From the NCBI RefSeq assembly GCF_037893015.1, contig NC_133658.1:742338877-742402876 (forward strand): a DNA stretch of 64,000 nt, read 5' to 3'. The stretch comes from Macrotis lagotis. Its lineage: Eukaryota. The notes beneath the pieces were generated by a model. It worked only from the letters and a program-made list of their open reading frames with translations. It was not told the origin of the DNA and searched no databases. Below, piece after piece: positions 10,121-50,460 of the stretch (positions are counted from its first letter, which is position 1; every line of letters begins with the position of its first letter). A program made the translations under genes and the position numbers.

Positions 10121-11741
10121 GAAGCAGAAATGTCATTGCTGACTAAAGCAGTACCTAAACGACCATTTTTAAAACGAGGAGAAGGCCTAGCTAGGTTTAC
10201 TAATGCTAAATCTAAATTTCAGAAAACAAAAGAGAGTAAATTAATGATTCATCAATGCATGCCAGAAGAACAATCTGTATTTAAAGCAGACAGACAACAA
10301 ATGCAGCGGAAAACTGCACTTGTAAATAAGGAACTAGTTACAGAGATGAAAAAGAGTAACCACATCAGAGCCAAGACCAATTCTGCTGCACTTTCTCAGA
10401 AATCAAAAGTACTTAGGAATAATAATGGAAAAATTATTTCTCCATCAAAAATGAAAATACAAATTGGGAAGAAATTTGATGGACAGTTTAGTAATCAGAT
10501 AAAGTTAGAGAAAACCAGTAAGTTAGAACCTAATAAGGAAAATATACCAGAGTATACCAAACCCTTTGAAATTGGCTGCAGAGTCAGAAATAAGTCACAA
10601 TGTATTGAAAAGCCTCTTGTTTCTACAGAACTGAACAATTCCACTTCTGTTAATAAAAGCTCTATGGGTCATATTGTAAAAGAGCCTGAATTTTCCTTTG
10701 AAATTTCATTTCAGAAGAAATTAGATAATTGGGAAAAGGAAAAAGAAAAGGAAAATTTGGAGTTAGATGAATTTTTGTTCTTGGAACAAGCTGCTGATGA
10801 AATATCATTCTCTAGTAATTCCTCATTTGTATTAAAAATCTTAGAAAGAGACCAACAGACGAGCACAGGACATCGAATGTCTTCTACCCCTGTCAAATCA
10901 GGGCAGCAAGTGAAAACAGATGTAACAGATATTGTTACTCCATACAATCAAAATGAAAAATTGGACCATATCAAACAAGATAAGAATATGTGTGAAATAA
11001 CAAAACCTCTTGAATTGGAAGCATCACCTCTTAATTTAAAGGAACAGTCCAGCAAACTCAGCAGAAAAGCATTTCAAACTACTACTTCTGAGAATCAGAT
11101 TGAATGGAATTTAAGTGAGGATGAAGATGATGGCAATAGTGCTATCAGCAGTGACTATGAAGAGCAACTGGATAGCACCATAAAAGCAACAAATGAAGAT
11201 ATTAAAAAAATTTTCAGCAGCAGCAGAGAAGATAAACCAGAGAAGGGTGATGATAAAGGACCTTTCAGAGATACTAGGAAAGAGGGTAAAAGTAGGGATA
11301 TTGATCTGGATTTGTCAGATAAAGATGATAGCAGTGATGAATCCATTGTGGTAGAAAGCATGAATGTTAACATTCCTGAGATTTCAAGAAGGGCATCAGG
11401 TACAAATATGAATAAAATTGACTTTGATGATGAGAGAACATGGACTGACCTTGAAGAAAATGAAAGTAAACACGATATACTTGGGAGTGAAGATGTTAAT
11501 GGGCTTCCACTGATAAACTGTTGTCGTAGAATTGAAATGGCTAATATGGATAAAGCAATAAAAAGGAAGGTTGCGCCCATAAAGAAGGGTGATGATTTAT
11601 GTAAATCCAATAAGAGTGTAAGTCCTCCTCCTACTTCTGATCTGATGATGAAACTCTTTCCTTCCCTGAAGCCTAAATCTCAGTCGGACTCACATTTAGC
11701 ATCTGAATCTGAATTAAATAAAAATCAAGAACAACCATTTG
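10121..11741 (+). CDS. CENPJ: CENPJ large coding exon (human exon 7 equivalent, 1621 nt)
   Basis: Acceptor tgatttctag|gaagcagaaATG. Translation EAEMSLLTKAVPKRPFLKRGEGLARFTNAKSKFQK...DEFLFLEQAADEISFSSNSSFVLKILERDQQ...FDDERTWTDLEEN...SDLMMKLFPSLKPKSQSDSHL...QPF(G) closely matches human CENPJ. Donor G|gtaagc at 11741/11742. The 540-aa ORF 10130..11752 in the track is this exon. Confidence 0.95.
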
Positions 11742-12358
11742 GTAAGCCTTAATATTATAAGAAACTAAAGATTTATCAAATGCTACAAAGCCTAAATTTG
11801 TTGTGATTTCTGTTTAGAAAGATGAGCTATTTGAAGCCCCAAGCTTTCCTTTCACTGATGCTTGAAAATCATATTTTTATTGCATACTCCAATGTAAAGT
11901 TCTATTGAGGTACCTCCTCACCAAAGATGTACAAGTTATAATCTGGGCCCTTGTGGAGTTTACTGTTCAGGAGGATACATACCATGTATACAAATCCATA
12001 TAGTTAGATGTAGTCAGGCATCAAGAAAGTGGTCCAGGAGCATAGTGGAAGAAAGTTTATTTAGTAGAACAGTGTTATACTCTAGTAAAAGGATTTAGAA
12101 GAAAATAAGAGTGATAAGATCTGTCACTTTTTACTTTTCTGATCCTATGTGTCAGTCATTCATTTGCAACCCAATATTCTAATACCTTTCAAAAACAAAA
12201 AGTATTCAACTTCTGGTTTTTGCCACTTAGAGAAAGTTTGAAGGAATACTTGCTTATAAAGCCTCATTTCATCCCATTCTCTCTTTGGAGGAGCAGATTT
12301 TTAATTTAATAACTGAAGATTTCTGCCTTTATTCAGCAAATTTGAGAGATGAAAATGA

Positions 12359-12360
<2 letters not shown>

Positions 12361-12447
<87 letters not shown>
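12361..12447. repeat. Compound microsatellite (GT)23(GA)20 in CENPJ intron 7
   Basis: gtgtgt... run at 12361-12407 abuts gagaga... at 12408-12447. ORF-track entries 12285..12497 and 12301..12609 are artefacts of it. Confidence 0.95.
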
Positions 12448-12450
<3 letters not shown>

Positions 12451-12740
12451 TCTGTTTGCCCAGCACATTAAATTTGCATTGTTCAGCTCATAATTAGATT
12501 TTTGACTGTATATAACTTTAAATGCCCTGCATATGGTATAAGTAGTTAATGATAGAATTTTCAACATTTCAAGGTGGAGTAATATTAAGTCAATTTTTAT
12601 TATTTTCATTAACTGGAGTAGATTTTGTAAGTCAATTTAACTCTCAAGTGCCTACATAATGTTTTCATTTAATAATGGCAATATATTACAATAAATTTTC
12701 TAATCAAAGCTCAGCATTTATATTACTTAATATGTTGTAG

Positions 12741-12876
12741 GTGATGATGGTATTCGCTCACAAGTTTTAAGAGAGAAAGTTGTTGAGTTGGAAACAGAAA
12801 TTGAAAGATTTAAAGCTGAAAATACTTCATTAGCTAAACTCCGCAATGAAAGAGAAAATGCCTTAGAAAATCTCAG
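12741..12876 (+). CDS. CENPJ: CENPJ coding exon 8
   Basis: Acceptor tatgttgtag|gt. Translation (G)[44 protein letters not shown](R) matches human [44 protein letters not shown]. Donor AG|gtatgt. Confidence 0.9.
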
Positions 12877-13220
12877 GTATGTTGTGGATCTCTAGAGTAT
12901 AATCAGTGTGATGCGTTGACTAAGGGTGGTGCATATGATTTTCACTAGGAATAGACTTAAAAGCAATTAAATACTGCAGAGCTCTATGTTTGGTGGCCAA
13001 CAAAAATGTCAAGGTTTTTCCATAAGGATCTAGTGATAATTGAGTTTTTCAATTAAGGCAATAGTTATCTTCAAGCAATTCTTAAGGATTCTTAGTACAA
13101 TTCTTTCATTATGAAAGGCAAGGGTCAAAAAAGTTTATAATAGCTCACATAATACTTGAAATCAGTGTATGGCTTCTTAAGTTTCATTGTTTAACTTCTA
13201 GCATAAAGAATCTACTTAGG

Positions 13221-13380
13221 GGTGGCTAGGTGGCTCAGTGGATAGAGCAGCGGCCCTGGAGTCAGGAGTACCTGAGTTCAAATCCGGCCTCAGACACTTA
13301 ATAATTACTTAGCTGTGTGGCCTTGGGCAAGCCACTTAACCCCATTTGCCTTGCAAAAAAAAACTAAAAAAAAATCTACT
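13221..13380 (+). mobile_element. tRNA-derived SINE copy (CENPJ intron 8), followed by a MIR-like element at about 13420-13620
   Basis: ggggtggctaggtggctcagtggatagagcagcggccctggagtcaggagtacctgagttcaaatccggcctcagacacttaataatt...ttgcaaaaaaaaa. Downstream, ttacagatgaggaaactgaggc is the MIR core. Confidence 0.85.
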
Positions 13381-27420: not shown

Positions 27421-27927
27421 TGGAATTCACTTTATCTTTGCAGCATTGCATTTGGACTTGATTTTAACATGGTGCTATCAATACCAGGGACATGCTATAT
27501 TATCCTTTATAGGATTGCCCATGGTTTTTGTTTTAGTAATCTAATGTAATATGATCAGTCATGAAATCATATATGATCATGGTCAATCTGGTTAGTTTAG
27601 AGCATCTGCTCCCTGGACCCATGTTACATTTTCTTTTGCTGGGATGCTGAGAACTTCCTGAAATTTCAGTGAAACAGTGACGAGCAGAACTGAGCTTGCT
27701 AGATTTCTTTGCATTAGAGTTAGTTATATTCTGAACAAACTTGGAATTTATATAGCAGTTCTGTTAAAGCAAGTCTGGGGCCAACTGTGGGGGTGGTGGG
27801 GAGGAATAGGAAGAGATTGAGTATTTTTATAGTGCCTGCTATGTCTCAAGCACAGTGCTGAGGGCTATGCATTATTAGCTCCTTGGATCCTCACAACTCT
27901 GGGAGGTTTTAGAATGAAGTTAATGGG

Positions 27928-28065
27928 GCAGCTAAGTGGCACAGTGTAGTCAGGAGTACCTGAATTAGATTCTGGCCTCAGACACTTAATAATTACCTAG
28001 CTGTATGGCCTTGGACAAGCCACTTAACCCCATTGCCTTGCAAAAACAACAACAACAAAAAATGG
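27928..28065 (+). mobile_element. tRNA-derived SINE copy with an internal deletion
   Basis: ggggcagctaagtggcacagtgtagtcaggagtacctgaattagattctggcctcagacacttaataattacctagctgtatggcc...ttgcaaaaacaacaacaacaaaaa. Confidence 0.75.
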
Positions 28066-28908
28066 AATGAAGTTAAGGGATGTGCCCAGGGTCATGCAGC
28101 TGTGAGTATCTGAAGCTGACTTCCTGCTCTGGTTCTAGTTTCATTTTTCAGCCAGGGGTGGTCTATGCCAGAGCTTTATGTCTAGTTCAAGAGGTAAACT
28201 GGATTTTTGGGTTGAGGTGGTTAGAAGGTATAGTCTATAAGATAGACAATCACAGTGTCTGCAATATTAAATTTTTTCTAAAGCAAGTCAGGAATTCTTA
28301 ACCTTAAAAAATTTCTTATTAAAACATTTTGATGACTATGTTTGGTTTTTCTTTATAATGATATGTATTTACTTTATACATCTAAAACATTCTGAGAAGG
28401 GGTCCACAATCCATGTCACACAAAAAAGTTCATAACTCCTGTCCTTGGTAATTAAGAAGTTAAAATACATCTGATATTTAAAACTTAATATATATCCAGA
28501 TTATAGTACACCCAGGTAATTTTAATCTCTAAATTACCTAAACAACCCCCTCAGGGGGATATGGAATAACATAATTTAATGTACTATGGCAGCTAGGTGG
28601 TTCAGTAAATAACATCTTGGATTTGGAACCGGTAAGACCCAAGTTCATATATAGCTTCAAAGACAATTTGTGACTGTGTTGACCCTAGGAAATATGCTTA
28701 GTCTGTCTCGACTGCAAAGTGAAGATGTCAGTAGCTACATCCCAATGAAGATCAAATGGGACATATGTAAAATGCTAAGTAAAGTCCTGGCCCACAGTTG
28801 GTGGTGTGTGGGTGGAGGGCTGTATTGGTGTATATACTTACTCCCTTCTTAGGAGATGTTTTCTATATTCACTAGATTACTCATAAAGTATTCTTTTCCT
28901 TTTTTTAG

Positions 28909-29010
28909 CTCGTAACCAGTGAAATATTTGAACCAGTGATATGCCCTGTTCCTGATTCTAAAGTACATGAAGAAGAAATTCATGGAGAAATCAGCCATCC
29001 TGATGGAAAG
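28909..29010 (+). CDS. CENPJ: CENPJ coding exon 13
   Basis: Acceptor ttttcctttttttag|ctc. Translation LVTSEIFEPVICPVPDSKVHEEEIHGEISHPDGK matches human ...DIQGEISHPDGK. Donor AAG|gtaaaa. Confidence 0.88.
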
Positions 29011-29539
29011 GTAAAACTTTATGAAACTTATTTTAATCTTAAAGATCTGAATCTATCCATCTGCTGCTGAAAAATGAGAGCAAATTACTATATTCCATCA
29101 TCTCCCCTTAATAAGCTGTTCTAATTGTCGCTGGTAGCTTGTTGAAATATGTGAAGAAAGCAAAGAGAATAGATATCTCTGAGAATAAAGAATTATAAAG
29201 TTGTACCCAGGTTTTTAGTTCCTCTTTTTGAAAATTGAAACATGAATATTGGTGATGGAGAGAAACAATATGATTTCAATATAAGAAGGCCCTTGGAGAT
29301 CTAGACTTCCATTCAAAGTAGGAATATTATCTTCTTATAATATCTCTTTTTTTAAAAATTTTTTTAAAATTTTATTTTTTAATTCTCATTTTGTACAAAT
29401 GGTTTTTTTTGCATTAATAAAATATTCTTGTTTAAGAGTGAACAAAATACCCCTCCCCCCATGAATATAGATAGACTTGCTTGGGCGAAAAAGTAAAGGG
29501 GAGAGAAAAAAATTAAAATAAAAAAAATTATAGTAATAA

Positions 29540-29890
29540 CTGTAGGTATGGTCAGGTGGCACAATGGACGAAGCACCAGCCCTGGAGCCACGAGCATCCA
29601 AGCCCACATCCAACCCTGCAGACCCAACAATCACCCAGCCGTGTGACATGCAAGCCACTCGATCCCCACTGCCCTGCAAAAACCTAAAAGAAGAAAAAAA
29701 AGACCCAAAATAAAATAAAATAAAATAGTAATAATAGTAGGGGTGGCTTGGTGGCAGACAGAGCATTGGCCCTTGAGTCAGGAGCACCTGGGTCCAAATC
29801 CGGCCCCAGACACCCAAAGATCACCCTGCTATGAGGCCCCAGGCAGGCCACCCATCCCCATTTGCCCTGCACCCTCCCCTAAATAATAAT
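29540..29890 (+). mobile_element. Two tandem, strongly transition-skewed (C-rich) SINE copies at about 29540-29695 and 29738-29890 (see findings)
   Basis: ggtcaggtggcacaatggacgaagcaccagccctggagccacgagcatccaagcccacatccaaccctgcagacccaacaatcacccagccgtgtgaca...ctgcaaaaacc and ggggtggcttggtggcagacagagcattggcccttgagtcaggagcacctgggtccaaatccggccccagacacccaaagatcaccctgctatgagg... both align to the SINE consensus with many T>C substitutions. Confidence 0.7.
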
Positions 29891-30716
29891 AATAAAAAAT
29901 GTGCTTCAGTCTTTGTTCCAACACCAACAACTCTGTCATGGGTGGATCACATTCTTCATGATAAGTCCTTCGCAAAAGTTACTTCCATATTTTTCCAACA
30001 TTGCCATTGCTGATCGCAACTCCCTCCTTTCTTATTTCTCCACTACCATGTACTATATTTTCTCTCTCCTTTCACTCTGACTCTGCTGTAGGGTCACTGA
30101 GTGGCACAGCAAACAGATCCCTGGTCCTGGGGCCAAGAAGCCCTGAGCCCCCATACCACCCCTTAGGCCCAGAATCCACCAGGCCCTATGGTCCTGGACA
30201 GGCCTTCCAATCCCAACCCCTTGCAAGAAGTAAAAAAGAAAATGTGTTATATCTGGCCACTCTTCCCCCATGATCCATCCTCTCCTCCTTTATTCACATC
30301 CCCACCCCTTCCCTCTGCTCCCCCCTCCTTCTTACTCCAGATGTCTATACCCCATTGAGTATATTTGCTGTTTCCTCTCCTAGCCACCTCTGATGAGAGC
30401 AAAGGTTCCCTCATTCCCCCTTGCCTCCCCCCTTCCATATCACTGCAATAGTTCATTGTAATAATAAAAAAAATCTTATTATATGGAATATCTTGGCCTA
30501 TTCTCCCCTCTCCTTTTTCTTTCTCCCATTACATTTCCCTTTTTTTTCTATTGACTCCATTTTTACACCATATTTTATCTTCGAATTCAGCTTTCTCCTG
30601 TGCTTCAACTATAAAAGCTCCCTCTACTTGCTCTATTAACTGAGAAGGTTCATATGAGTATTATCAGTGTCGTTTTTCTATGCAGGAATACATGCAGTTC
30701 GTCATCATTAAGTCCC

Positions 30717-32550
30717 TTATATTTCCCCCCTCTCCTCCAATCTCCATGCTTCACCTGAGTCCTGTATCTGAAGATCAAACCTTCTGTTCAGCTCTGGCCA
30801 TTCCAAAAGGAACATTTGAAATTCCCCTGGTTCATTGAAAGTCCATCTTTTTCCCTGGAAGAGGACATTCAGCCTTGCTGGGTAGTTCATTCTTGGCTGC
30901 ATTCTAAGCTCTTTTGCCTTCCAGTATATTGTATTCCAAGCCCTATGAGCTTCCAATGTAGTTGCTGCTAAGTGCTGTGTGATCCTGACTGCAGCTCCAT
31001 GATATTTGAACTGTGTCCTTCTGGCTGCTTGTAATATTTTCTCTTTGACTTGGGAGTTCTGGAAATTGGCTATAATATTCCTAGGGGTTGGTTTTTTGGG
31101 ATCTCTTTCTCGGGGGGATAGGTGGATTCTCTCCATTTCTATTTTGCCCTCTGCTTCTAGAATATCAGGGCAATTTTCCTGTAGTAATTCTTTGAAAATG
31201 ATGTCAAGGCTCTTTTCCTGATCATGACTTTAAGGTATTCCAATAATTTTTAAATTATCTTTCCTAAGTCTGTTTTCCATATCAGTTGTTTTTTCAATGA
31301 GATATTTCACATTTTCTTCTAATTTTTCATTTTTTTTTGGTTTTGAAGTATGGATTCTTGATTCCTGGTAAATTCATCAATCTCCCTGAATTCTATTCTT
31401 TGTCTGAAGGATTTGTTCTCCTCAGAGAGTTTTCTTATCTCTTTTTCCAACTGGCCAATTTTGCTTTTTAAGGCATTCTTCTCCTCAATAACTTTTGAAC
31501 TGTTTTATCCATTTGACCTAAGCTGGTTTTTAGCATGCTATTTTCTTCAGCATTTTTTTGGATTTCCTTGACTAAGCTGCTGACTTCATTTTCATGTTTT
31601 TCCTGCATCTCTCTCCTTTCTTTGCCCAGTTTTTCTTCTAACTCCCTCATTTGATTTTCAAAGTCTTTTTTGAGCTCTGTCATAGCCTGAGCCCAATTTC
31701 TGTTTTTCTTGGAGTCTTTAGATGCAGGAGCTTGTGCTTCCTCATCTTCAGACAGAGTATTTTGATCCTTCTTGGGCTCATGAGCAAAATATTTCTCAAT
31801 GGTCTTCCTCTTATTTCTCTGCTTGCTCATTTTCCCAGCCTGAGCCTGGTTTTGGGGTGCTTCCTGAGCTTTTGGGACACTCCCACAAGGGTCTCAGTGT
31901 GTGAGGCTCTGTCCTCCCCCTGGTCTGTGAATGACCATAAGCACCTCCCTCTGCCAGGTGGCTGAGGTGGGGGGGCCCTGTTGTTCTGTGGGGGGCCTAG
32001 ACTGGGATCAGGATCTGAATGTGGTCAGAGCCCCAGAGTCCTGTTCCAGAGGCAGAGGACAGAGCTCTGCAAGTCTCTCTCTCTCTCCACTCCCCTCCCT
32101 AGGTTCAATGGGCTCATGGGGGCTCCTGCTTCTGTTTCCTGGTCTGGGGGAAAGACCATGCTGCTTGCTGTGTGCCCTGAGGGCTGGGCTCCACGTGCTT
32201 GCTCTGGCAGAGGTCCCCTGTTGTTCCCCCACTTTGTGCCTGGTGCTCCCCGGGGTGCAGCTCAGGAGACTCCCCTGCTGCTGTGAGCCGCGACTCCCAG
32301 TGCCCTGGGCCTGCCTCCCGGAGGCTGAAGTTCTTTTGCTTTGGCGGGCCACCCCTCTGGCCAGCTGCCCCTCCAACCCTGGGAGCAGAGCCTTTCTGCT
32401 CTTTTCCAGGTTACCTTGAGTAGGAGAACTGCCTCACTGGGTCTCTTTGTGGGTTCTGTCTCTCGAAAGTTTAGAATCCTTAGTTTCACGTTTTATCAGA
32501 GAGGCCTAAGACTTGATCCCTTCCTGTAGCCATCTTGGCTCCGCCCCCTA
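30717..32550 (-). mobile_element. L1 (LINE-1) 5' fragment on the - strand: GC-rich 5'UTR (about 31831-32550) plus disrupted ORF1 (30717-31830), antisense in CENPJ intron 13
   Basis: Minus-strand ORFs 31468..31830 (MSKQRNKRKTIEKYF...coiled-coil) and 30717..31136 (...NFQNSQVKEKILQAARRTQFKYHGAAVRITQHLAA...RWTFNEPGEFQMFLL) look like the L1 ORF1p N-terminal coiled-coil and RRM/CTD. The two are separated by a frameshifted gap. The region 31900-32550 is GC/CpG-rich like an L1 5'UTR. No ORF2 follows. Confidence 0.7.
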
Positions 32551-33792
32551 TAATATCTCTTAATAAGTAATTGAATAGCCTCTCCTCAACTTCCCTAACA
32601 GGGAGTTTATCACTTGTGTTTCAAAGCTCCTCCTCTTTTAATTTTTATGCATTTCTTCCAATTTTGTCCAGCTATCTATTTAGGATGTCTATTACCCTCT
32701 TATCTTTCATAAAACATTTTAATACATTTTTAAACTCAAGGTGAGGTATCAGAATATGAGTTTATAAGATATGCTACCTGAATACACAGTATGGTCAGTT
32801 CTACCACACTGGAAAAATGTGTGGTCATGGCAAGATAGCTAGCTGAGTCTTCAGAAAAGCAGACTTAAGTATGGAGTAGCATGGCACCAGACTGGCCAGT
32901 TGGTTATATATTCTTTGGCTATAGTTCTCCACACTATATGGCCTTCAATCCTGTTAAAACCCCCTTCTGTTACTGTATTGATGGTAGTGGAAGCAGGCAA
33001 CCAAAGGTGCTAATCAGCAGGCGTTTATTAAGCATCTACAGATGCTGAATAAAGGCTTTAGGAATTAAAAGAAAAATAGAATTTTCTATCTTTTAGGATC
33101 TTAGAAGTTGGTACTCTTCAACATGAAATTCTTTTCCAGTGACCAAGAGCCATAACTAATAGAGGAACTGAATTAGGTCAATCTTGATTTTGACAATAGT
33201 CAGGTAAAAAGAATAACTTACAAATTTTTCTTAGAGCATTGACATAGTTGATTTTATCCTGCACCCAAAAACCACCAACATAGGTTCTTCAGTATCTTAT
33301 GATCTTGCATGTTAATGCTTATTACTAGAATCAGAACAAAGACTACCATAAATAAATGGTATGTATTTAGCTATGATGAAATGGCAGAGAAATTCTATAA
33401 AAACTCAGACCCCAAATTTAATTTATTTTTTGAATTCAAAATAAAAATAGAGGGTAGGCAGGATGAGAAATAAACTGAAAAACAGAAATTAGAGAAAAAT
33501 AATGTAGCTTCATATTTGAACTGCTGAGTGATGAACATAATCATCAAATATCACAAAAAAAAGCTGATTTCATTTTAATATGTAGTAAATGCTTTGTATT
33601 CATTATTGATTCAGCTGACTAAAATTCATATTAAATCTATAAGAATAGAAATGGATAAAAAATTATGCAATCTTAACAAGTCAAGACAATTTTTGGATAA
33701 TGACAAATTGATTGTATCCTTCCCATTTTGAGATCAGAGGAGTGATCAGCAAATATTTGACCTATTTTCCAGACTTTGATGAATATTATCTT

Positions 33793-33915
33793 GTTGATAG
33801 AGCAACAGCCCTTTAGATAGGAGGACCTAAGTTCAAATCTGGTCTCAGACACTTAATACTTACTTAGCTGTGTGACCTTGGCCAAGTCATTTAACCCCAT
33901 TGCCTTACAAAAAAG
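33793..33915 (+). mobile_element. 5'-truncated tRNA-derived SINE copy
   Basis: cagccctttagataggaggacctaagttcaaatctggtctcagacacttaatacttacttagctgtgtgaccttggccaagtcatttaaccccattgccttacaaaaaagg. Confidence 0.7.
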
Positions 33916-34454
33916 GAGGATGGTTAAAGGTTGAAGACTGAACACTGTCCCAGAAAGGCAGAAAGAAGCAGCGTGGAATCATTTAAAGAAAGTTTAGCAA
34001 GAGATCCTACTAAAACAAGGTCATCAAAGGATAAAACTAGAACAATTTAGAGAGCTGCAGAGATTTTTTAAAATTTATTTTTATTAAAGATATTTGAGTT
34101 TTACAATTTCCCCCCCCAATATTACTTCCCTCCCCCCACCCCCCCATGGAAAGCAATCTGTCAGTCTTTACTTTGTTTCCAAACTTTGATCCAAATTGGG
34201 TGTGCTGCAGAGATTTTTAAACAAACTTTTTTCACCATCAAAAATGGCAGTCACTCTTCTTTGACAATAAAATCAAATTATAGATGTGCTTACAGAGGTA
34301 GAAATAACACTGAGAAGAAAAGCAACTTGATTAGAGCTAACTTTCATAAGAGATCTGCTGAATGGGATTGATTCACAAAATTTATCTATGATGATGATGA
34401 TTCTGAAGACATGGAAAAATCAGACTTCACAGAAGACAGCTCAAATTACACCTT

Positions 34455-44339: not shown

Positions 44340-45070
44340 TTTTTCTTTTATTATTTTTCCAATCTGATGTGAAAATAGTGTTCAACAATCATTTTTTTGT
44401 AAAGTTTTCTCCCTTCCATCCTGTTCTCCCACCACCCCAAGATAGCAAGTAATCTGATACAGGTCAAACATGAACAATCATGTTACACATATTTTCTCAT
44501 TAGTCATGCTGTAAAAGAAGAATCAGAGCAAAAGGGAAAAAAATGACAAGAAAGAAAAAATAAAAAATAATTGAAAATATTATGCTTTGGTACTCTATAG
44601 TTTTTTCTCTGGATGTGGATGACATTTTCCATTACAAGTCTTAAAATTATCCTTGGTCATAACCTGCTAAGAAAGATAAATCCCTATCATAGTTGATTAT
44701 TACACACAATGCTGTTACTGTGTACAATTTTGTCCTGATTCTGCTCACTTCATTCAGCATTAGTTTGTGTGTTCACAAATTTTTTTTTGAAATCAACCTG
44801 CATCATTTCTTATAGAACACATCACAAATACTACAATTTGTTCAGTCATTCTGAATTGATGGACATTCCCTTAATTTCCAATTCTTTGCCACCATACAAA
44901 AAGAGCTGCTTTAAATATTTTTTGTACATGTAGGGTCTTTTCCACTTTTTTTGGACTTCTTTGGGATATAGACCTAGGAGTGGATATAGTTTTAAAGCTC
45001 TTTAAGGTATGGTTCCAAATTGCTTTCCAGAAAGGTTGAATCAGTTCTCAAAGGTACCAAAAGTGCTTAA
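44340..45070 (+). repeat. Unclassified interspersed repeat family with copies at about 1140-1400, 14190-14830, 38150-38410, 44340-45070 and 60290-60760
   Basis: Shared blocks are ttttccaattacatg..., tctctggatgtggatgacattttccat, catagttgattattacacacaatgctgttactgtgtacaa, and gaaatcaacctgcatcatttcttatagaacacatcacaaatactacaatttgttcagtcattctgaattgatgg. The 38150-38410 and 60590-60760 segments align to the 44620-44900 segment. Confidence 0.5.
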
Positions 45071-46830: not shown

Positions 46831-47490
46831 CAATTAAAAAAAAGAAAAGGGGAAAAAAAATCTCACAACTAAACTCAAGAGTAAATGGAACAACCAATAT
46901 AATTTTCACAGATGATGAAATATATTTCCCTTCTCTTTGTAAAAGAGCTGGGGGACAGTAGTCACAGACTACTATGTCTCAATTAACTTAATTTTCTTTT
47001 TTTTTAAAAAGAGTGTTCCACAAGAATGGGGTACATCTATTTTACATAAAAGAGGCAAGGAAAAAGCTTTTGCCATGGAGTGGGAGGGGTGAGGGGGAGC
47101 TGGGGGAGCCTTTACTCTCAACAGAAGTGGTTCAGATAGGAATGACATATACAACTCAATTGGGTATAGAAATCTCTCTTATCCTAGTAGAAAATAGGAG
47201 AAGAAAGGGGATAGCGGAGTGGGGGGGTGTTGTAGGTGATAGAAGAGAGGGAAGATGGTAGGAGAGGGTAATCAGATACAACACACTTTTGCGGAAGGAC
47301 AGGGTGAAAAAAAAGAATAGAATAAATAGGGGTGGGATACAAGATGGAGGGAAATACAGCTAGTAGTAATAGCAACTGTGGGAAAAATATTGAAGCAATT
47401 TCTCTGGATGGATTTATGATAAAGAATGTTATCCACCCCAAAGAGAGAGCTGACAGTGTCTGAATACAGACTGAAACACACTCATTTTTT

Positions 47491-47530
47491 GTCCTCCATT
47501 TTTATTATTATTATTATTATTATTATTGTT
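47491..47530. repeat. (ATT)n microsatellite
   Basis: tattattattattattattattattgttattattaattatta. Confidence 0.9.
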
Positions 47531-47534
47531 ATTA

Positions 47535-47690
47535 TTAATTATTATGTTTTTGTAAGGCAAATGGGGTTAAGTGGCTTGCCCAAGGCCTCACAGCTAGGTA
47601 ATTATTAAGTGTCTGAAGTCGGATTTCAACTCAGGTACTCCTGACTTCAGGGCCAGTGCTCCATCCACTGCACCACCTAGCTGCCCCCCC
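47535..47690 (-). mobile_element. tRNA-derived SINE copy adjacent to the (ATT)n microsatellite
   Basis: gtaaggcaaatggggttaagtggcttgcccaaggcctcacagctaggtaattattaagtgtctgaagtcggatttcaactcagg...gcaccacctagctgccccccc. ORF-track entry 47426..47608 covers it. Confidence 0.85.
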
Positions 47691-48223
47691 CATTTATTTT
47701 TCTCAAGGTTTCTCTATGTGTGTGTGTAATTATGTTTATTTTGTGACATGACTTGTAGCAATGTGTTTTGTGGCTACATAATTTTAACTTATACCAAGTA
47801 ACTGACTTGCTCAGTGGAGGGAGGTGGGGTAGGAGGAAGGGAGATAATTTGGAACTCAAGGTTTTGGAGACTTGCTTTTCCATGTAGCTGGGATTAAAAA
47901 AAATGTAAAAAAAAAGAATGTGGTACCATCAGGAAATGACTATGGTATAAAAACCAAAAGATGCCAATAACACTATGGCATCTTCAATGAAGGTGGAAAT
48001 ATAAAATATTTCTTCTATTAAGGAAAATAGCTGATATATAAAAAAAGTGTAACAAAGTTCCTGATTAAAGAAATTATTTTTCTATTTTTTCACTTTTTCA
48101 AAACAAACATTTATTTAATGAAAGCTGTCACAAATATTTTTAAAAAGCATGTCAAAATTTCATTAAGAATAAAAATATTAGGAAATTTCTCTGTGTTTGA
48201 AGAATAACATAAAAGAAAAATAC

Positions 48224-48383: not shown

Positions 48384-49729
48384 CTAGGCCAAAAAAAAAA
48401 ATAAAAAGGCAATACATTTAAATTTTGTTATTTTTGCAATATTTGTTATTTTAATTAGCAAAAGAATGCATAAGAACCAATAGTAATTATAACTAGAATA
48501 CTTTTTGGCACTTCTGCTCTGATACCTTATCAACTTCTTGACCCTTAATATGAAGGTGTTCCTCAGGAGACTTTTTCTTTTCTCTCTCTTTTATTTTGCC
48601 ATATTTTTCCCCTGTTAGATCTCAGGAGCCATCTAGTTTAATCAATTATCTGAAACACGATTTTCAAGCACTGAAGAGGAGGGAAACCTTCATTGGGATG
48701 TTTTAATTGCTAGGGAAAAGTTTCCTTATATCTAGCCTAAATTTGTCTCCCTGCAATATTCAAAGATTGTTTCTAATTCTGTTTTCTGGGGTCAGTCAGA
48801 ACAAGCCTAATTCTTCCTTCCACATGATAGTGCATTTATGCTTTTTTCCAAATCAATGATAAAACTGTTAAACAAGTCAGACTTAAACACAGATTCCTGA
48901 AGTAGTTTGTCAAACTTTCAAGTTGAAATTGATCCTAATAATTAGTAAGTATTCTTGTGAAGTCAACTTGATCAGTTTTGAATCTAACTTATTTTTTGAC
49001 TCATTTTCCCATAAGAATAGCATGATGAGATCATGGAGACTATGTCAAATACTTTGCTAAAATAGAGGAAAACTATATAGGATTTCTTTGAACTAACCAT
49101 TGAGCAACTGGTTCAAAAAGCTGAGGAAGGAATGAGTTTAGATGTAGCTCCATAGGACAGGGAGTTGAGTTTCAAAGGCAACAAACCATTCTTTTCTTCT
49201 CCAATTCCAGGCCAAATTCGCTGTCTATTTATGGTGTCTGTCCAAGATCTACATAGAGTTGACAAGTTCCTTCAAACATACCAATATTATAATTGGGATA
49301 ACAAGTATTCTTCAACCACTGGGTTTTCCCTAAGAGGATAATTTTGTGTAACTCTTTGGTTTATGGATTCTAGGGCTTGATGCAATTGGTATAATGTCAT
49401 CTATAAATAGGTAGTTTTTAGGTTAGGGCTGTTGAAAATGTGGCCCACAGAGCAATTTTATGTGCCTCCCTGTAGCTTGACTAAATGAGATTTAGTAAAT
49501 GAAAGCGAGTTACCACAGAGTTCTTACTAAAATGGCAAATCAAAATATATTGTCTATTGCTTCAATAAAAACTTTTAAAAGTTAGGTTGGACAGGTTGGA
49601 CAGTCCTGTTTTAGATGAAGAAATGATAGCATATGAAAAAGTGCTCTAATTCATTTATTGGTTAGAGAACTATAACAAATGAAAACAACTTTGAAGTATG
49701 ACTTCACACCTATCAGATGACAAAAAAGA

Positions 49730-50460
49730 AAAATGATAAATGTTGGGAGAGGACATGGGAAAACTGATGCACTGCTGGACAAATTATGCAATGTTGGTAG
49801 AGCTGTGAACTGATGCAACCATTCTGGAAAGCAATTTGGAATTATGCTCAAAGGGCAATAAAAGTAATCATACCTTTTGATCCAGCAATAACCACTATTG
49901 TATACCAAAGGGAATAAAAGGGAAAAGGACTCATATGTACAAAAATATTCTTGGCAGCTCTTTTTATGGTAACAAAGAATTTGAAATTGAAGGGATGTCT
50001 ATCAATTGGGGAATGGGTAAATGATAAGGAGGATGCTTTCAGAAAAACCTAGAAAGATTTACCCTAATTTATGCAAAGTGAAATGAGGAGAACCAGAAGA
50101 ACACTGTACATAAGTAACAGCAATACTGTATGGTGATCATACTGTGAATGATTTAGCTATCTCAGCAACAAAATGATCCAAGATAATGTCAGTCGACTCA
50201 TGATAAAAAAACAAACAAACAACTATCTACTTTTAGAGAAAGGACTCATGAAGTCTGAATGCAGATTGAAGCATTTTTAACTATTTTTCTCATTAATTTT
50301 TTGGGGGTAGAAATCTGTTTTCTTTCACATGACTAATATAAAAAGGTTTTGCATGACTGTACATGTATAATCTAAATCAAACTACTTGTCTTTTCAATGA
50401 GAGAAGAGTGAAGGAAAGGAGAGAACTTAGAACTCAATTTTCATTTGTAAATAAAAAAAA
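49730..50460 (+). mobile_element. L1 3'-end fragment (end of ORF2 plus 3'UTR) in an RNF17 intron
   Basis: ctggacaaattatgcaatgttggtagagctgtgaactgatgcaaccattctggaaagcaatttggaattatgctcaaagggc...ttgaagggatgtctatcaattggggaatgggtaaatgataag is the conserved L1 ORF2 C-terminal/3'UTR block. The element ends in a poly(A)-like tract near 50460. Confidence 0.65.

What the first reader, a model, noticed from the sequence alone, without database searches (positions are those of the whole stretch)
29380..30716. Transition-skewed (T>C on + strand, equal to A>G on - strand) SINE copies abutting an antisense L1 5'UTR-ORF1 fragment: candidate hyper-edited retrocopy
Two adjacent SINE copies (about 29540-29695 and 29738-29890) align to the window's own SINE consensus with an excess of T>C changes. 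In the 3' half of the second copy roughly 10 of 18 substitutions are T>C, versus 2 A>G and 2 G>A. Neutral decay usually enriches C>T and G>A, so drift toward C is unusual. On the - strand this is A>G, the ADAR A-to-I signature. The adjacent L1 5'UTR-ORF1 fragment also runs on the - strand and continues downstream into this C-rich block with no ORF2. This is compatible with one retrotransposed, internally deleted transcript whose antisense-SINE portion was edited in dsRNA before reverse transcription. Alternatives are strong local GC-biased gene conversion or a distinct C-rich SINE subfamily.
Basis: partly seen in the sequence, partly recalled or inferred. Interest (0 to 1): 0.55.

Follow-up and report, generated by a model that had tools for sequence, protein, structure and literature searches.

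The report
A-to-G skewed SINE pieces in half-L1
A young, ORF1-only ("half-L1") retrotransposon copy in a marsupial CENPJ intron carries three old SINE-derived pieces in which about half of the adenosines on the element's RNA strand have become G, most likely a fossil of ADAR RNA editing fixed by retrotransposition, which is a known kind of event.

Summary
There are three SINE-derived modules, not two: 29541-29682, 29739-29876 and 30095-30232, all sense on +. They show T>C at 17/29, 13/29 and 15/29 consensus T sites. Thirty other SINE copies in the window show 25/870 (Fisher P = 6e-35). A>G on the same strand is only 15/104, so the skew is strand-specific.

All three modules lie inside one retrotransposed unit, 29349-32548 on the - strand. 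It has an exact 13-bp target-site duplication, an A-rich tail, an L1 5'UTR and a decayed ORF1, and no ORF2. The ORF1 is 96% identical to an intact bilby ORF1.

Two tammar wallaby loci have the same ORF1-only layout with their own target-site duplications. The element is therefore a HAL1-like family member, not a one-off internal deletion.

The skew equals A>G on the element's RNA strand. It is confined to the SINE modules, and same-strand SINEs 1.3 kb away show none. ADAR editing of element RNA, fixed by reverse transcription, fits best.

Against this, the expected avoidance of a 5' G is not seen (8/12 such cells changed) and no partner in cis exists. The modules' heavy other divergence and CpG-decay footprints suggest most edits were inherited from ancestral source copies. 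No other bilby copies could be retrieved to test that.

The parts
29336..29348 (.). Left copy of the target-site duplication, TATAATATCTCTT
   Evidence: Exact 13-bp match to 32549-32561. These are the only two occurrences in the window.
29349..29382 (-). A-rich tail of the element (T/A-rich as read on the + strand)
   Evidence: Read directly from the sequence. It abuts the left target-site duplication.
29383..29540 (-). 3'-terminal non-SINE part of the 3'UTR, including a GGGGGGAGGGG tract on the - strand
   Evidence: Sequence. A comparable G-rich tract lies near the 3' end of the wallaby ORF1-only elements (L001, L002) and the dunnart L1 (L003).
29541..29682 (+). SINE module S1, antisense to the element. 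T>C at 17/29 T sites.
   Evidence: Profile nhmmer E = 4.7e-17. Substitution tables.
29683..29738 (+). A-rich tail of S1 and linker. Together with S1 it forms a unit of about 195 bp repeated in tandem as S2.
   Evidence: Direct repeats D2, D6 and D9 with spacing of 192-195 bp. Self-BLAST 29510-29678 versus 29707-29871, 70% identity.
29739..29876 (+). SINE module S2, antisense to the element. T>C at 13/29 T sites.
   Evidence: Profile nhmmer E = 7.8e-29. Substitution tables.
29897..30094 (-). Non-SINE 3'UTR segment
   Evidence: 75% identical to window 47365-47480, the second 3'UTR copy. C/T versus T/C differences are 4 versus 1.
30095..30232 (+). SINE module S3, antisense to the element, the most diverged. 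T>C at 15/29 T sites.
   Evidence: Profile nhmmer E = 6e-6 over model positions 9-172. Substitution tables. Absent at the corresponding place in the second 3'UTR copy.
30243..30716 (-). Proximal 3'UTR, purine-rich on the - strand, starting directly after the ORF1 stop codon
   Evidence: Homologous to the start of the wallaby ORF1-only 3'UTR (window 30672-30797 versus L002) and to window 47075-47175. tblastn finds no ORF2 similarity.
30717..31830 (-). L1 ORF1, decayed by 2 frameshifts and 1 in-frame stop
   Evidence: Three-frame translation. The stitched protein is 96% identical over 100% of its length to P0001, Macrotis lagotis LOC141499684, which carries Pfam PF02994 and PF17490. It is 74% identical at DNA level to wallaby L001 and L002.
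31831..32548 (-). L1-type 5'UTR. On the - strand the element starts GGGGGCGGAGCCAAGATGG.
   Evidence: Sequence. The wallaby elements start the same way: L002 GGGGAGGCGGAGCCAAGATGG and L001 GGGGGGGAGGAGCCAAGATGG.
32549..32561 (.). Right copy of the target-site duplication, TATAATATCTCTT

Best explanation
Window 29349-32548 (- strand) is a young copy of an L1-derived, ORF1-only ('half-L1', HAL1-like) retrotransposon from a bilby-like marsupial genome. L1 machinery inserted it antisense into a CENPJ intron.

Its 3'UTR contains three old SINE-derived modules, all antisense to the element. In the element's RNA these modules are complementary to the very abundant sense SINE transcripts.

The proposed mechanism has three steps:
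1. The modules formed double-stranded RNA, probably in trans with sense SINE RNA.
2. ADAR deaminated roughly half of their adenosines to inosine.
3. The L1 reverse transcriptase copied inosine as G, so the changes became permanent A>G (T>C on the + strand) in daughter copies.

The edits most likely accumulated in ancestral source copies of this lineage, in one or several rounds, and this insertion inherited them.

Shown here: the single insertion unit, the ORF1-only layout, the SINE origin of the modules, the size and strand of the skew, and its confinement to the modules. Inferred: ADAR as the agent, pairing in trans, and the timing.
For: Size, strand and confinement of the skew:
- T>C is found at 45/87 T sites in the three modules versus 25/870 in 30 control SINEs, P = 6e-35.
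- The skew is strand-specific: A>G on + is 15/104, P = 5e-8. The affected strand is the element's RNA strand, as set by the target-site duplication, tail, 5'UTR and ORF1 orientation.
- The skew is confined to the SINE modules. In the non-SINE 3'UTR compared with the second copy, C/T versus T/C differences are 8 versus 7, against 28 versus 3 in the SINE parts.
- Polarised changes in the non-SINE 3'UTR are A>G 17 versus G>A 19 on the element strand.
- C/(C+T) is 0.69-0.73 in the modules, 0.43-0.45 in the surrounding UTR and 0.55 in the SINE consensus. The modules therefore moved away from the UTR composition, not towards it.
- There is no regional effect. Same-strand SINEs at 27925-28042 and 33793-33909 show T>C at 0/27 and 0/29.

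Timing:
- The modules carry 20-40 non-T>C substitutions each.
- The insertion itself is young: a perfect 13-bp target-site duplication and an ORF1 96% identical to an intact copy.
- T>C at TG sites appears as CA three times, CG once and CC twice.
Against: - The classic ADAR 5' neighbour rule is not met. Adenosines with a 5' G on the - strand are changed in 8/12 cells. The other classes are 18/20 (5' U), 13/21 (5' A) and 6/27 (5' C). This rests on only 4 distinct 5'-G sites. The low 5'-C class may instead reflect CpG decay.
- The 3.2-kb element contains no inverted SINE partner. Editing would need pairing in trans, which is generally less efficient than pairing in cis.
- No unedited progenitor or sister copy could be examined.
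- The polarised control for the non-SINE UTR rests on a noisy alignment of about 58% identity.
- A>G on the + strand is also mildly raised: 14%, versus about 6.5% in similarly old controls.
Confidence: 0.6

Rival explanations
1. One-off hyperediting. The transcript that gave rise to this particular insertion was hyper-edited by ADAR just before reverse transcription. The progenitor locus carries unedited SINE modules.
For: The skew evidence is the same as for the best explanation. A single retrotransposition unit with a target-site duplication is shown. S1 retains four newly created CpGs, so some changes may be recent.
Against: - The modules are much older than the insertion. They carry 15-29% non-T>C divergence, including 8-19 transversions each. 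The target-site duplication is perfect and ORF1 is 96% identical to an intact copy.
- At TG sites only 1 intact CG is seen against 3 CA and 2 CC. I estimate that a burst in the last cycle, at about 30% editing with about 80% CpG survival, should have left about 6 intact CpGs.
- S2 and S3 have 1 and 0 CpGs.
Confidence: 0.15
2. Selection or drift in the source lineage towards a G-rich, G-quadruplex-prone 3'UTR, without RNA editing. A>G changes were retained because G-runs help the element, as proposed for the L1 3'UTR G-tract.
For: - The changes raise G>=3 runs on the element strand from 2 to 7-9 per module.
- A G-rich tract (GGGGGGAGGGG) near the 3' end is also found in the wallaby ORF1-only elements and the dunnart L1.
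- No 5'-G avoidance is seen.
Against: - The gain in G comes almost only from A>G. On the + strand T>C is 45, against G>C 5 and A>C 9. This points to a mutational source rather than general selection for G.
- About 50% of all adenosines changed across three 140-nt modules, far more than G-runs would need.
- The surrounding UTR is not similarly enriched.
Confidence: 0.12
3. The skew is not related to RNA. It reflects a pre-existing C-rich SINE subfamily, or a change acting on the DNA after insertion, such as GC-biased gene conversion or a local mutational hotspot.
For: Seven T sites are C in all three modules, and sharing of T>C sites is slightly above chance (10 observed versus 7.7 expected, and similar for the other pairs).
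Against: - None of about 38 other SINE copies in the window has the pattern.
- Most T>C sites differ between modules, and the pairwise sharing P values are 0.06-0.12.
- The skew is strand-asymmetric (T>C 52% versus A>G 14%), unlike gene conversion.
- Flanking same-strand SINEs and the non-SINE UTR are unaffected.
- The insertion is too young to have accumulated 45 changes in place.
Confidence: 0.05

Closest known systems
Genomic retrotransposon copies carrying fixed ADAR (A-to-G) editing clusters (Knisbacher & Levanon 2015, Ann N Y Acad Sci 1341:115, PMID 25722083). The reference is listed in PMC5850729; the content is from my own knowledge.
   Same: Dense, strand-specific A>G changes on the transcribed strand of a retroelement, fixed in DNA through reverse transcription.
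   Different: Here the changed sequence is SINE-derived modules embedded antisense in the 3'UTR of an ORF1-only L1 derivative. No progenitor-daughter pair is available. The 5'-G depletion used as the ADAR hallmark is not seen. The edits appear to be inherited along a lineage rather than private to one copy.
A-to-G hypermutated avian retroviral proviruses (Rous-associated virus, avian leukosis virus), as summarised in PMC12925331
   Same: About 50% of adenosines replaced by G in a region able to form dsRNA, fixed via reverse transcription.
   Different: Those cases involve an inverted repeat in cis. Here no partner in cis exists. This element is an endogenous non-LTR element.
HAL1 ('half-L1') non-autonomous L1 derivatives that encode only ORF1p (Smit 1999; Bao & Jurka 2010; summarised in PMC5753468). 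Repbase names such as HAL1-3A_ME and HAL1-2a_MD appear in the literature.
   Same: L1 5'UTR, ORF1 and 3'UTR with an A-tail and target-site duplications, and no ORF2. The same layout occurs in two full-length wallaby copies.
   Different: I could not compare with the Repbase consensus sequences. The bilby element has three extra SINE modules in its 3'UTR that the wallaby elements lack. Whether it descends from the same deletion event as the wallaby family, or arose separately, is not established beyond the homologous junction between ORF1 and the 3'UTR.
Conserved G-rich polypurine / G-quadruplex tract of mammalian L1 3'UTRs (Howell & Usdin 1997; Sahakyan et al. 2017; own knowledge)
   Same: The changed modules are G-run rich on the element strand, with 7-9 runs of G>=3. 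They sit in the 3'UTR next to a native GGGGGGAGGGG tract.
   Different: Quadruplex formation and any effect on mobility were not tested. The G-runs here derive from SINE sequence by A>G changes.

Membership tests
ADAR-hyperedited retroelement copy | Excess of A>G on the transcribed (RNA) strand only | tested here: met
   T>C on + (A>G on the element strand) at 45/87 sites, versus A>G on + at 15/104 (P = 5e-8) and controls at 25/870 (P = 6e-35). The element strand is set by the target-site duplication, tail and ORF1.
ADAR-hyperedited retroelement copy | Dense clustering, up to about half of adenosines, limited to sequence able to form dsRNA | tested here: met
   45-59% of sites changed per module. 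The non-SINE UTR is balanced, at 8 versus 7 and 17 versus 19. Flanking SINEs show 0/27 and 0/29.
ADAR-hyperedited retroelement copy | Depletion of G immediately 5' of edited adenosines | tested here: not met
   With a 5' G, 8/12 cells are changed, versus 37/68 for the other contexts, Fisher P = 0.54. This covers only 4 distinct sites, so power is low.
ADAR-hyperedited retroelement copy | A complementary partner that makes the edited stretch double-stranded | tested here: inconclusive
   There is no inverted SINE within the 3.2-kb element; the longest inverted repeats are A/T-rich and at most 34 nt. Pairing in trans with sense SINE RNA is plausible but cannot be tested from sequence.
ADAR-hyperedited retroelement copy | An unedited progenitor or sister copy differing mainly by A>G | not testable with these tools
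The only related 3'UTR in the window (46995-47935) belongs to a diverged subfamily.
HAL1 (half-L1) non-autonomous L1 derivative | L1-type 5'UTR and ORF1 (Transposase_22 family) | tested here: met
   The stitched ORF1 is 96% identical to P0001 (PF02994 and PF17490) and 43-65% identical to other marsupial L1 ORF1 proteins. In this copy the ORF is broken by 2 frameshifts and 1 stop.
HAL1 (half-L1) non-autonomous L1 derivative | No ORF2 between ORF1 and the 3' end | tested here: met
The same queries find ORF2 in dunnart locus L003.
HAL1 (half-L1) non-autonomous L1 derivative | Mobilised as a unit, with an A-tail and target-site duplications | tested here: met
   Exact 13-bp target-site duplication and an A-rich tail.
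HAL1 (half-L1) non-autonomous L1 derivative | Several copies sharing the ORF1-only layout, meaning a family and not a one-off deletion | tested here: inconclusive
   Met in tammar wallaby: L001 9877-12650 and L002 9324-12074 are 87.7% identical, and each has its own target-site duplication. The junction between ORF1 and the 3'UTR is homologous to the window element. Other copies in the window's own genome could not be fetched.
Marsupial tRNA-like, L1-mobilised SINE (the window's abundant SINE) | Full-length similarity of S1-S3 to the family profile | tested here: met
   Profile nhmmer E = 4.7e-17, 7.8e-29 and 6e-6, covering nearly the whole model.
GC-biased gene conversion tract | Weak-to-strong changes on both strands (T>C about equal to A>G), affecting all sequence in the tract | tested here: not met
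   T>C 52% versus A>G 14%. The non-SINE sequence between the modules and the neighbouring SINEs are unaffected.

The most novel reading that the evidence does not exclude
Repeated ADAR editing of antisense SINE modules carried in the 3'UTR of an active half-L1 lineage progressively rewrote them into G-run-rich, quadruplex-prone sequence that no longer pairs with SINE RNA. Edited source copies were favoured for one of two reasons: they escape dsRNA- or small-RNA-based silencing, or they gain a functional G-tract. On this reading, RNA editing acted as a heritable generator of new retrotransposon UTR sequence.
Probability: 0.12. Interest if true: 0.6.

Novelty: new member of a known kind. Interest (0 to 1): 0.38.

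Why it matters
If the ADAR reading holds, this locus is a clean fossil of RNA editing written back into a mammalian germline genome through retrotransposition. It occurs in marsupials, which have been little studied in this respect.

It also shows that SINE fragments captured in an L1 or HAL1 3'UTR can be remodelled much faster than their surroundings. For genome annotation, it shows that such modules can fall below standard repeat-detection thresholds; S3 was missed by a single-sequence search.

It does not reveal a new mechanism. Edited retroelement copies and HAL1 families are both already described.

Tried and rejected
- Retrieving sister copies from the source genome failed by every route. 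The bilby ORF1 protein P0001 is not on record for locus look-up. The window's own 139-aa ORF1 fragment is not on record either. A 143-aa ORF spanning S1 and S2 has no protein homologues. The host-gene exon search returned CENPJ from other taxa but no marsupial entry. P0010 (Tasmanian devil) is not on record.
- Rfam search of 28000-34000 found no match at E <= 1.
- A search for an inverted SINE partner inside the element found none.
- tblastn for ORF2 remnants in the element found none. Only old fragments lie elsewhere in the window, at 49717-50019 and 44891-45065.
- A lineage-wide mutational bias of L1 replication was considered and rejected. The modules are more G-rich on the element strand (0.69-0.73) than the surrounding UTR (0.43-0.45), so they moved away from the UTR composition.
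- Transcription-coupled asymmetry from the host gene was considered and rejected. CENPJ is on the + strand, which would favour A>G on +, the opposite direction, and that effect is small (own knowledge).
- Bao & Jurka 2010 (PMC2923044) could not be read, so the marsupial HAL1 families described there were not compared.
- Target-site duplications of the individual modules S1-S3 inside the UTR could not be resolved by eye.
Full report
**What the window is.** The sequence is eukaryotic and rich in a tRNA-like, A-tailed SINE; a profile search finds about 40 copies or fragments in 64 kb. The host gene on the + strand is CENPJ. The 540-aa exon at 10130-11752 matches CENPJ/CPAP proteins. A small exon at about 28909-29012 matches gorilla CENPJ residues 714-745. 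The L1 ORF1 inside the finding is 96% identical over its full length to Macrotis lagotis LOC141499684 and at most 65% identical to ORF1 proteins of other marsupials. The window therefore most likely comes from the greater bilby or a close relative. L1 makes up 20.9% of the bilby assembly (PMC11239497).

**Checking the observation.** I built a 141-nt consensus from 16 well-preserved SINE copies in the window and aligned every copy to it.

A third, more diverged copy lies 200 bp further on (S3, 30095-30235). It shows T>C at 15/29 sites. A single-sequence search misses it, but the family profile detects it at E = 6e-6 over nearly the whole model.

Thirty control copies on both strands give T>C at 25/870 sites, never more than 4 in one copy, and A>G at 46/1014 sites. 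Focal versus control T>C gives Fisher P = 6e-35. Within the focal copies, T>C 45/87 versus A>G 15/104 gives P = 5e-8. An independent MAFFT --add alignment returns identical T>C counts.

**Anatomy of the insertion.** An exact 13-bp direct repeat, TATAATATCTCTT, occurs only at 29336-29348 and 32549-32561. Reading the - strand between the two repeats, the parts are:
- an L1-type 5' end (GGGGGCGGAGCCAAGATGG...) and a 5'UTR at 32548-31831;
- ORF1 at 31830-30717, broken by two frameshifts and one stop;
- a purine-rich 3'UTR of 1.37 kb that contains the three SINE modules in antisense orientation;
- an A-rich tail at 29382-29349.

The same queries detect ORF2 in a dunnart L1 locus. The whole block is therefore one L1-mediated insertion of an ORF1-only element.

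**This is a family architecture, not a one-off deletion.** I fetched two tammar wallaby loci through ORF1 homologues. L002 9324-12074 has the target-site duplication AAAATGAAG. L001 9877-12650 has AAAATTCCTTCTATA. They are 87.7% identical over their full 2.75 kb. Each consists of a 5'UTR, an intact or nearly intact ORF1, a purine-rich 3'UTR of about 1 kb and an A-tail, with no ORF2.

The window element is 74% identical to them across ORF1, and the similarity continues about 45 bp past its stop codon into the start of the 3'UTR. A second, older, 5'-truncated 3' end in the window (46995-47935, sense on +) is colinear with the wallaby 3'UTR.

This layout matches HAL1, the non-autonomous 'half-L1' that encodes only ORF1p and is said to have arisen several times in mammals (PMC5753468). 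The wallaby 3'UTRs contain no SINE module. Without its three modules (about 0.55 kb), the bilby-like element has the wallaby length.

**Where the skew is and is not.**
- T>C on + equals A>G on the element's RNA strand.
- In the non-SINE 3'UTR compared with the second copy, C/T versus T/C differences are 8 versus 7. In the SINE parts they are 28 versus 3.
- I polarised changes using agreement between the second copy and wallaby. The non-SINE UTR then shows A>G 17 versus G>A 19 on the element strand. That alignment is noisy, at about 58% identity. In the modules the comparison is 45 versus 13.
- C/(C+T) on + is 0.69-0.73 in the modules, 0.43-0.45 in the adjacent UTR and 0.55 in the SINE consensus. 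The modules drifted away from the UTR's composition, which argues against a general replication bias of the lineage.
- Same-strand SINEs 1.3 kb upstream and 1.2 kb downstream of the insertion have T>C at 0/27 and 0/29. This excludes a regional DNA-level process.
- The strong strand asymmetry excludes GC-biased gene conversion.
- A C-rich SINE subfamily is unlikely. No other copy in the window shows the pattern. Only 7 T sites are C in all three modules. Pairwise sharing of changed sites is barely above chance (10 observed versus 7.7 expected, P = 0.06-0.12).

**Mechanism.** A strand-specific conversion of about half the adenosines, limited to the parts of an RNA that have abundant complementary transcripts in the cell, is what ADAR hyperediting of long duplex RNA produces. 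Once reverse transcribed, inosine is fixed as G. Retroviral proviruses with 'nearly 50% of the adenosines substituted with guanosines' are a documented precedent (PMC12925331). Edited retrotransposon copies in mammalian genomes have also been reported (Knisbacher & Levanon 2015; reference seen, content from my own knowledge). I take this as the best explanation, with confidence 0.6.

Two predictions fail or remain open:
Changed fractions by 5' neighbour on the RNA strand are U 18/20, A 13/21, G 8/12 and C 6/27. G is not avoided, although this rests on only four sites. The one disfavoured class, 5' C, corresponds to TG on +, where T>C creates a CpG, so later CpG decay may explain it.
- The element holds no inverted SINE, so pairing would have to be in trans with sense SINE RNA.

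**Timing.** The insertion is young. Its target-site duplication is perfect, and ORF1 differs from an intact bilby copy at about 4% of residues. The modules are old. Besides the T>C changes they carry 26, 20 and 40 other substitutions, including 8-19 transversions each. This is comparable to the oldest free SINE copies in the window.

All but one of their ancestral CpGs have decayed or been deleted. Of the six T>C events at TG sites, three now read CA (the CpG-decay product), two read CC, and only one is an intact CG. S2 and S3 contain 1 and 0 CpGs.

I estimate that a burst of editing in the final transcript should have left about six intact new CpGs. I therefore think most edits were acquired in ancestral source copies and inherited. 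S1's four fresh CpGs allow for some later changes.

S1 and S2 are a tandem duplication of a unit of about 195 bp that includes 17 bp of non-SINE flank. They share only two non-T>C derived states, so the duplication preceded most changes.

The SINE in the second 3'UTR copy (47550-47695) is unedited, with T>C at 0/30. It is young and has an AAATGG-type flanking repeat. It looks like an independent later insertion into the same A-rich spot.

**Rivals.** One-off editing of the last transcript gets 0.15. Selection for a G-rich, quadruplex-prone UTR without editing gets 0.12. In favour of that rival, G>=3 runs rise from 2 to 7-9 per module. Against it, the gain in G is almost purely A>G, with T>C 45 versus G>C 5 and A>C 9 on +. 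A C-rich subfamily, gene conversion or a local hotspot gets 0.05.

**What could not be done.** No sister copies from the source genome could be fetched. Whether the pattern is private or inherited is therefore inferred, not shown. That is the decisive missing test. Rfam has nothing in the region.

**Verdict.** This is a real, highly significant, strand-specific A>G footprint in SINE-derived modules of a HAL1-like element. ADAR editing fixed by retrotransposition explains it best, most likely along the lineage rather than in this copy alone. Both ingredients are known kinds, so this is a new member of a known kind and of moderate interest.

Noticed in passing
window 10130-11752 (+) and about 28909-29012 (+): Exons of the host gene CENPJ (centromere protein J / CPAP). 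The HAL1-like insertion starts about 340 bp downstream of the small exon, in the intron and antisense to the gene.
   Followed up: partly
window 46995-47935 (element sense on +): An older, 5'-truncated L1/HAL1 3' end, colinear with the wallaby ORF1-only 3'UTR. It carries a young, unedited SINE at 47550-47695 (T>C 0/30), flanked by an AAATGG-type repeat. This looks like a separate insertion into the same A-rich spot where S1 and S2 sit in the focal element.
   Followed up: partly
L001 9877-12650 and L002 9324-12074 (Notamacropus eugenii, GCA_028372415.2): Two full-length ORF1-only (HAL1-like) elements, 87.7% identical, each with its own target-site duplication. GenBank annotates them as protein-coding 'uncharacterized protein' genes. 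L002 has an intact 362-aa ORF1.
   Followed up: yes
window 29541-29682, 29739-29876, 30095-30232 (- strand): The A>G changes raise the number of G>=3 runs on the element strand from 2 (canonical antisense SINE) to 7-9 per module. An example is GGGGAGGGTGCAGGGCAAATGGGGATGGGTGG. The sequence is quadruplex-prone and lies next to the native GGGGGGAGGGG tract of the 3'UTR.
   Followed up: no
protein P0011: A 'Bacteroidales bacterium MAG' hypothetical protein on a 2.5-kb contig is 48% identical over 96% of this marsupial L1 ORF1. This is probably host DNA contamination in a metagenome-assembled genome.
   Followed up: no
window 49717-50019 (+) and 44891-45065 (-): Old, weak L1 ORF2 remnants, the first at 35% identity to the human ORF2p C-terminal region. 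These are the only ORF2-like sequence detected in the window.
   Followed up: no
L003 11164-11687 (Sminthopsis crassicaudata): This full-length dunnart L1 has about 520 bp between the ORF1 stop and the first ORF2 similarity. The ORF2 endonuclease match is interrupted at 12354-13350 by a misplaced fragment similar to the ORF2 C-terminal region. Its 3'UTR is short (about 400 bp) and contains no SINE.
   Followed up: no
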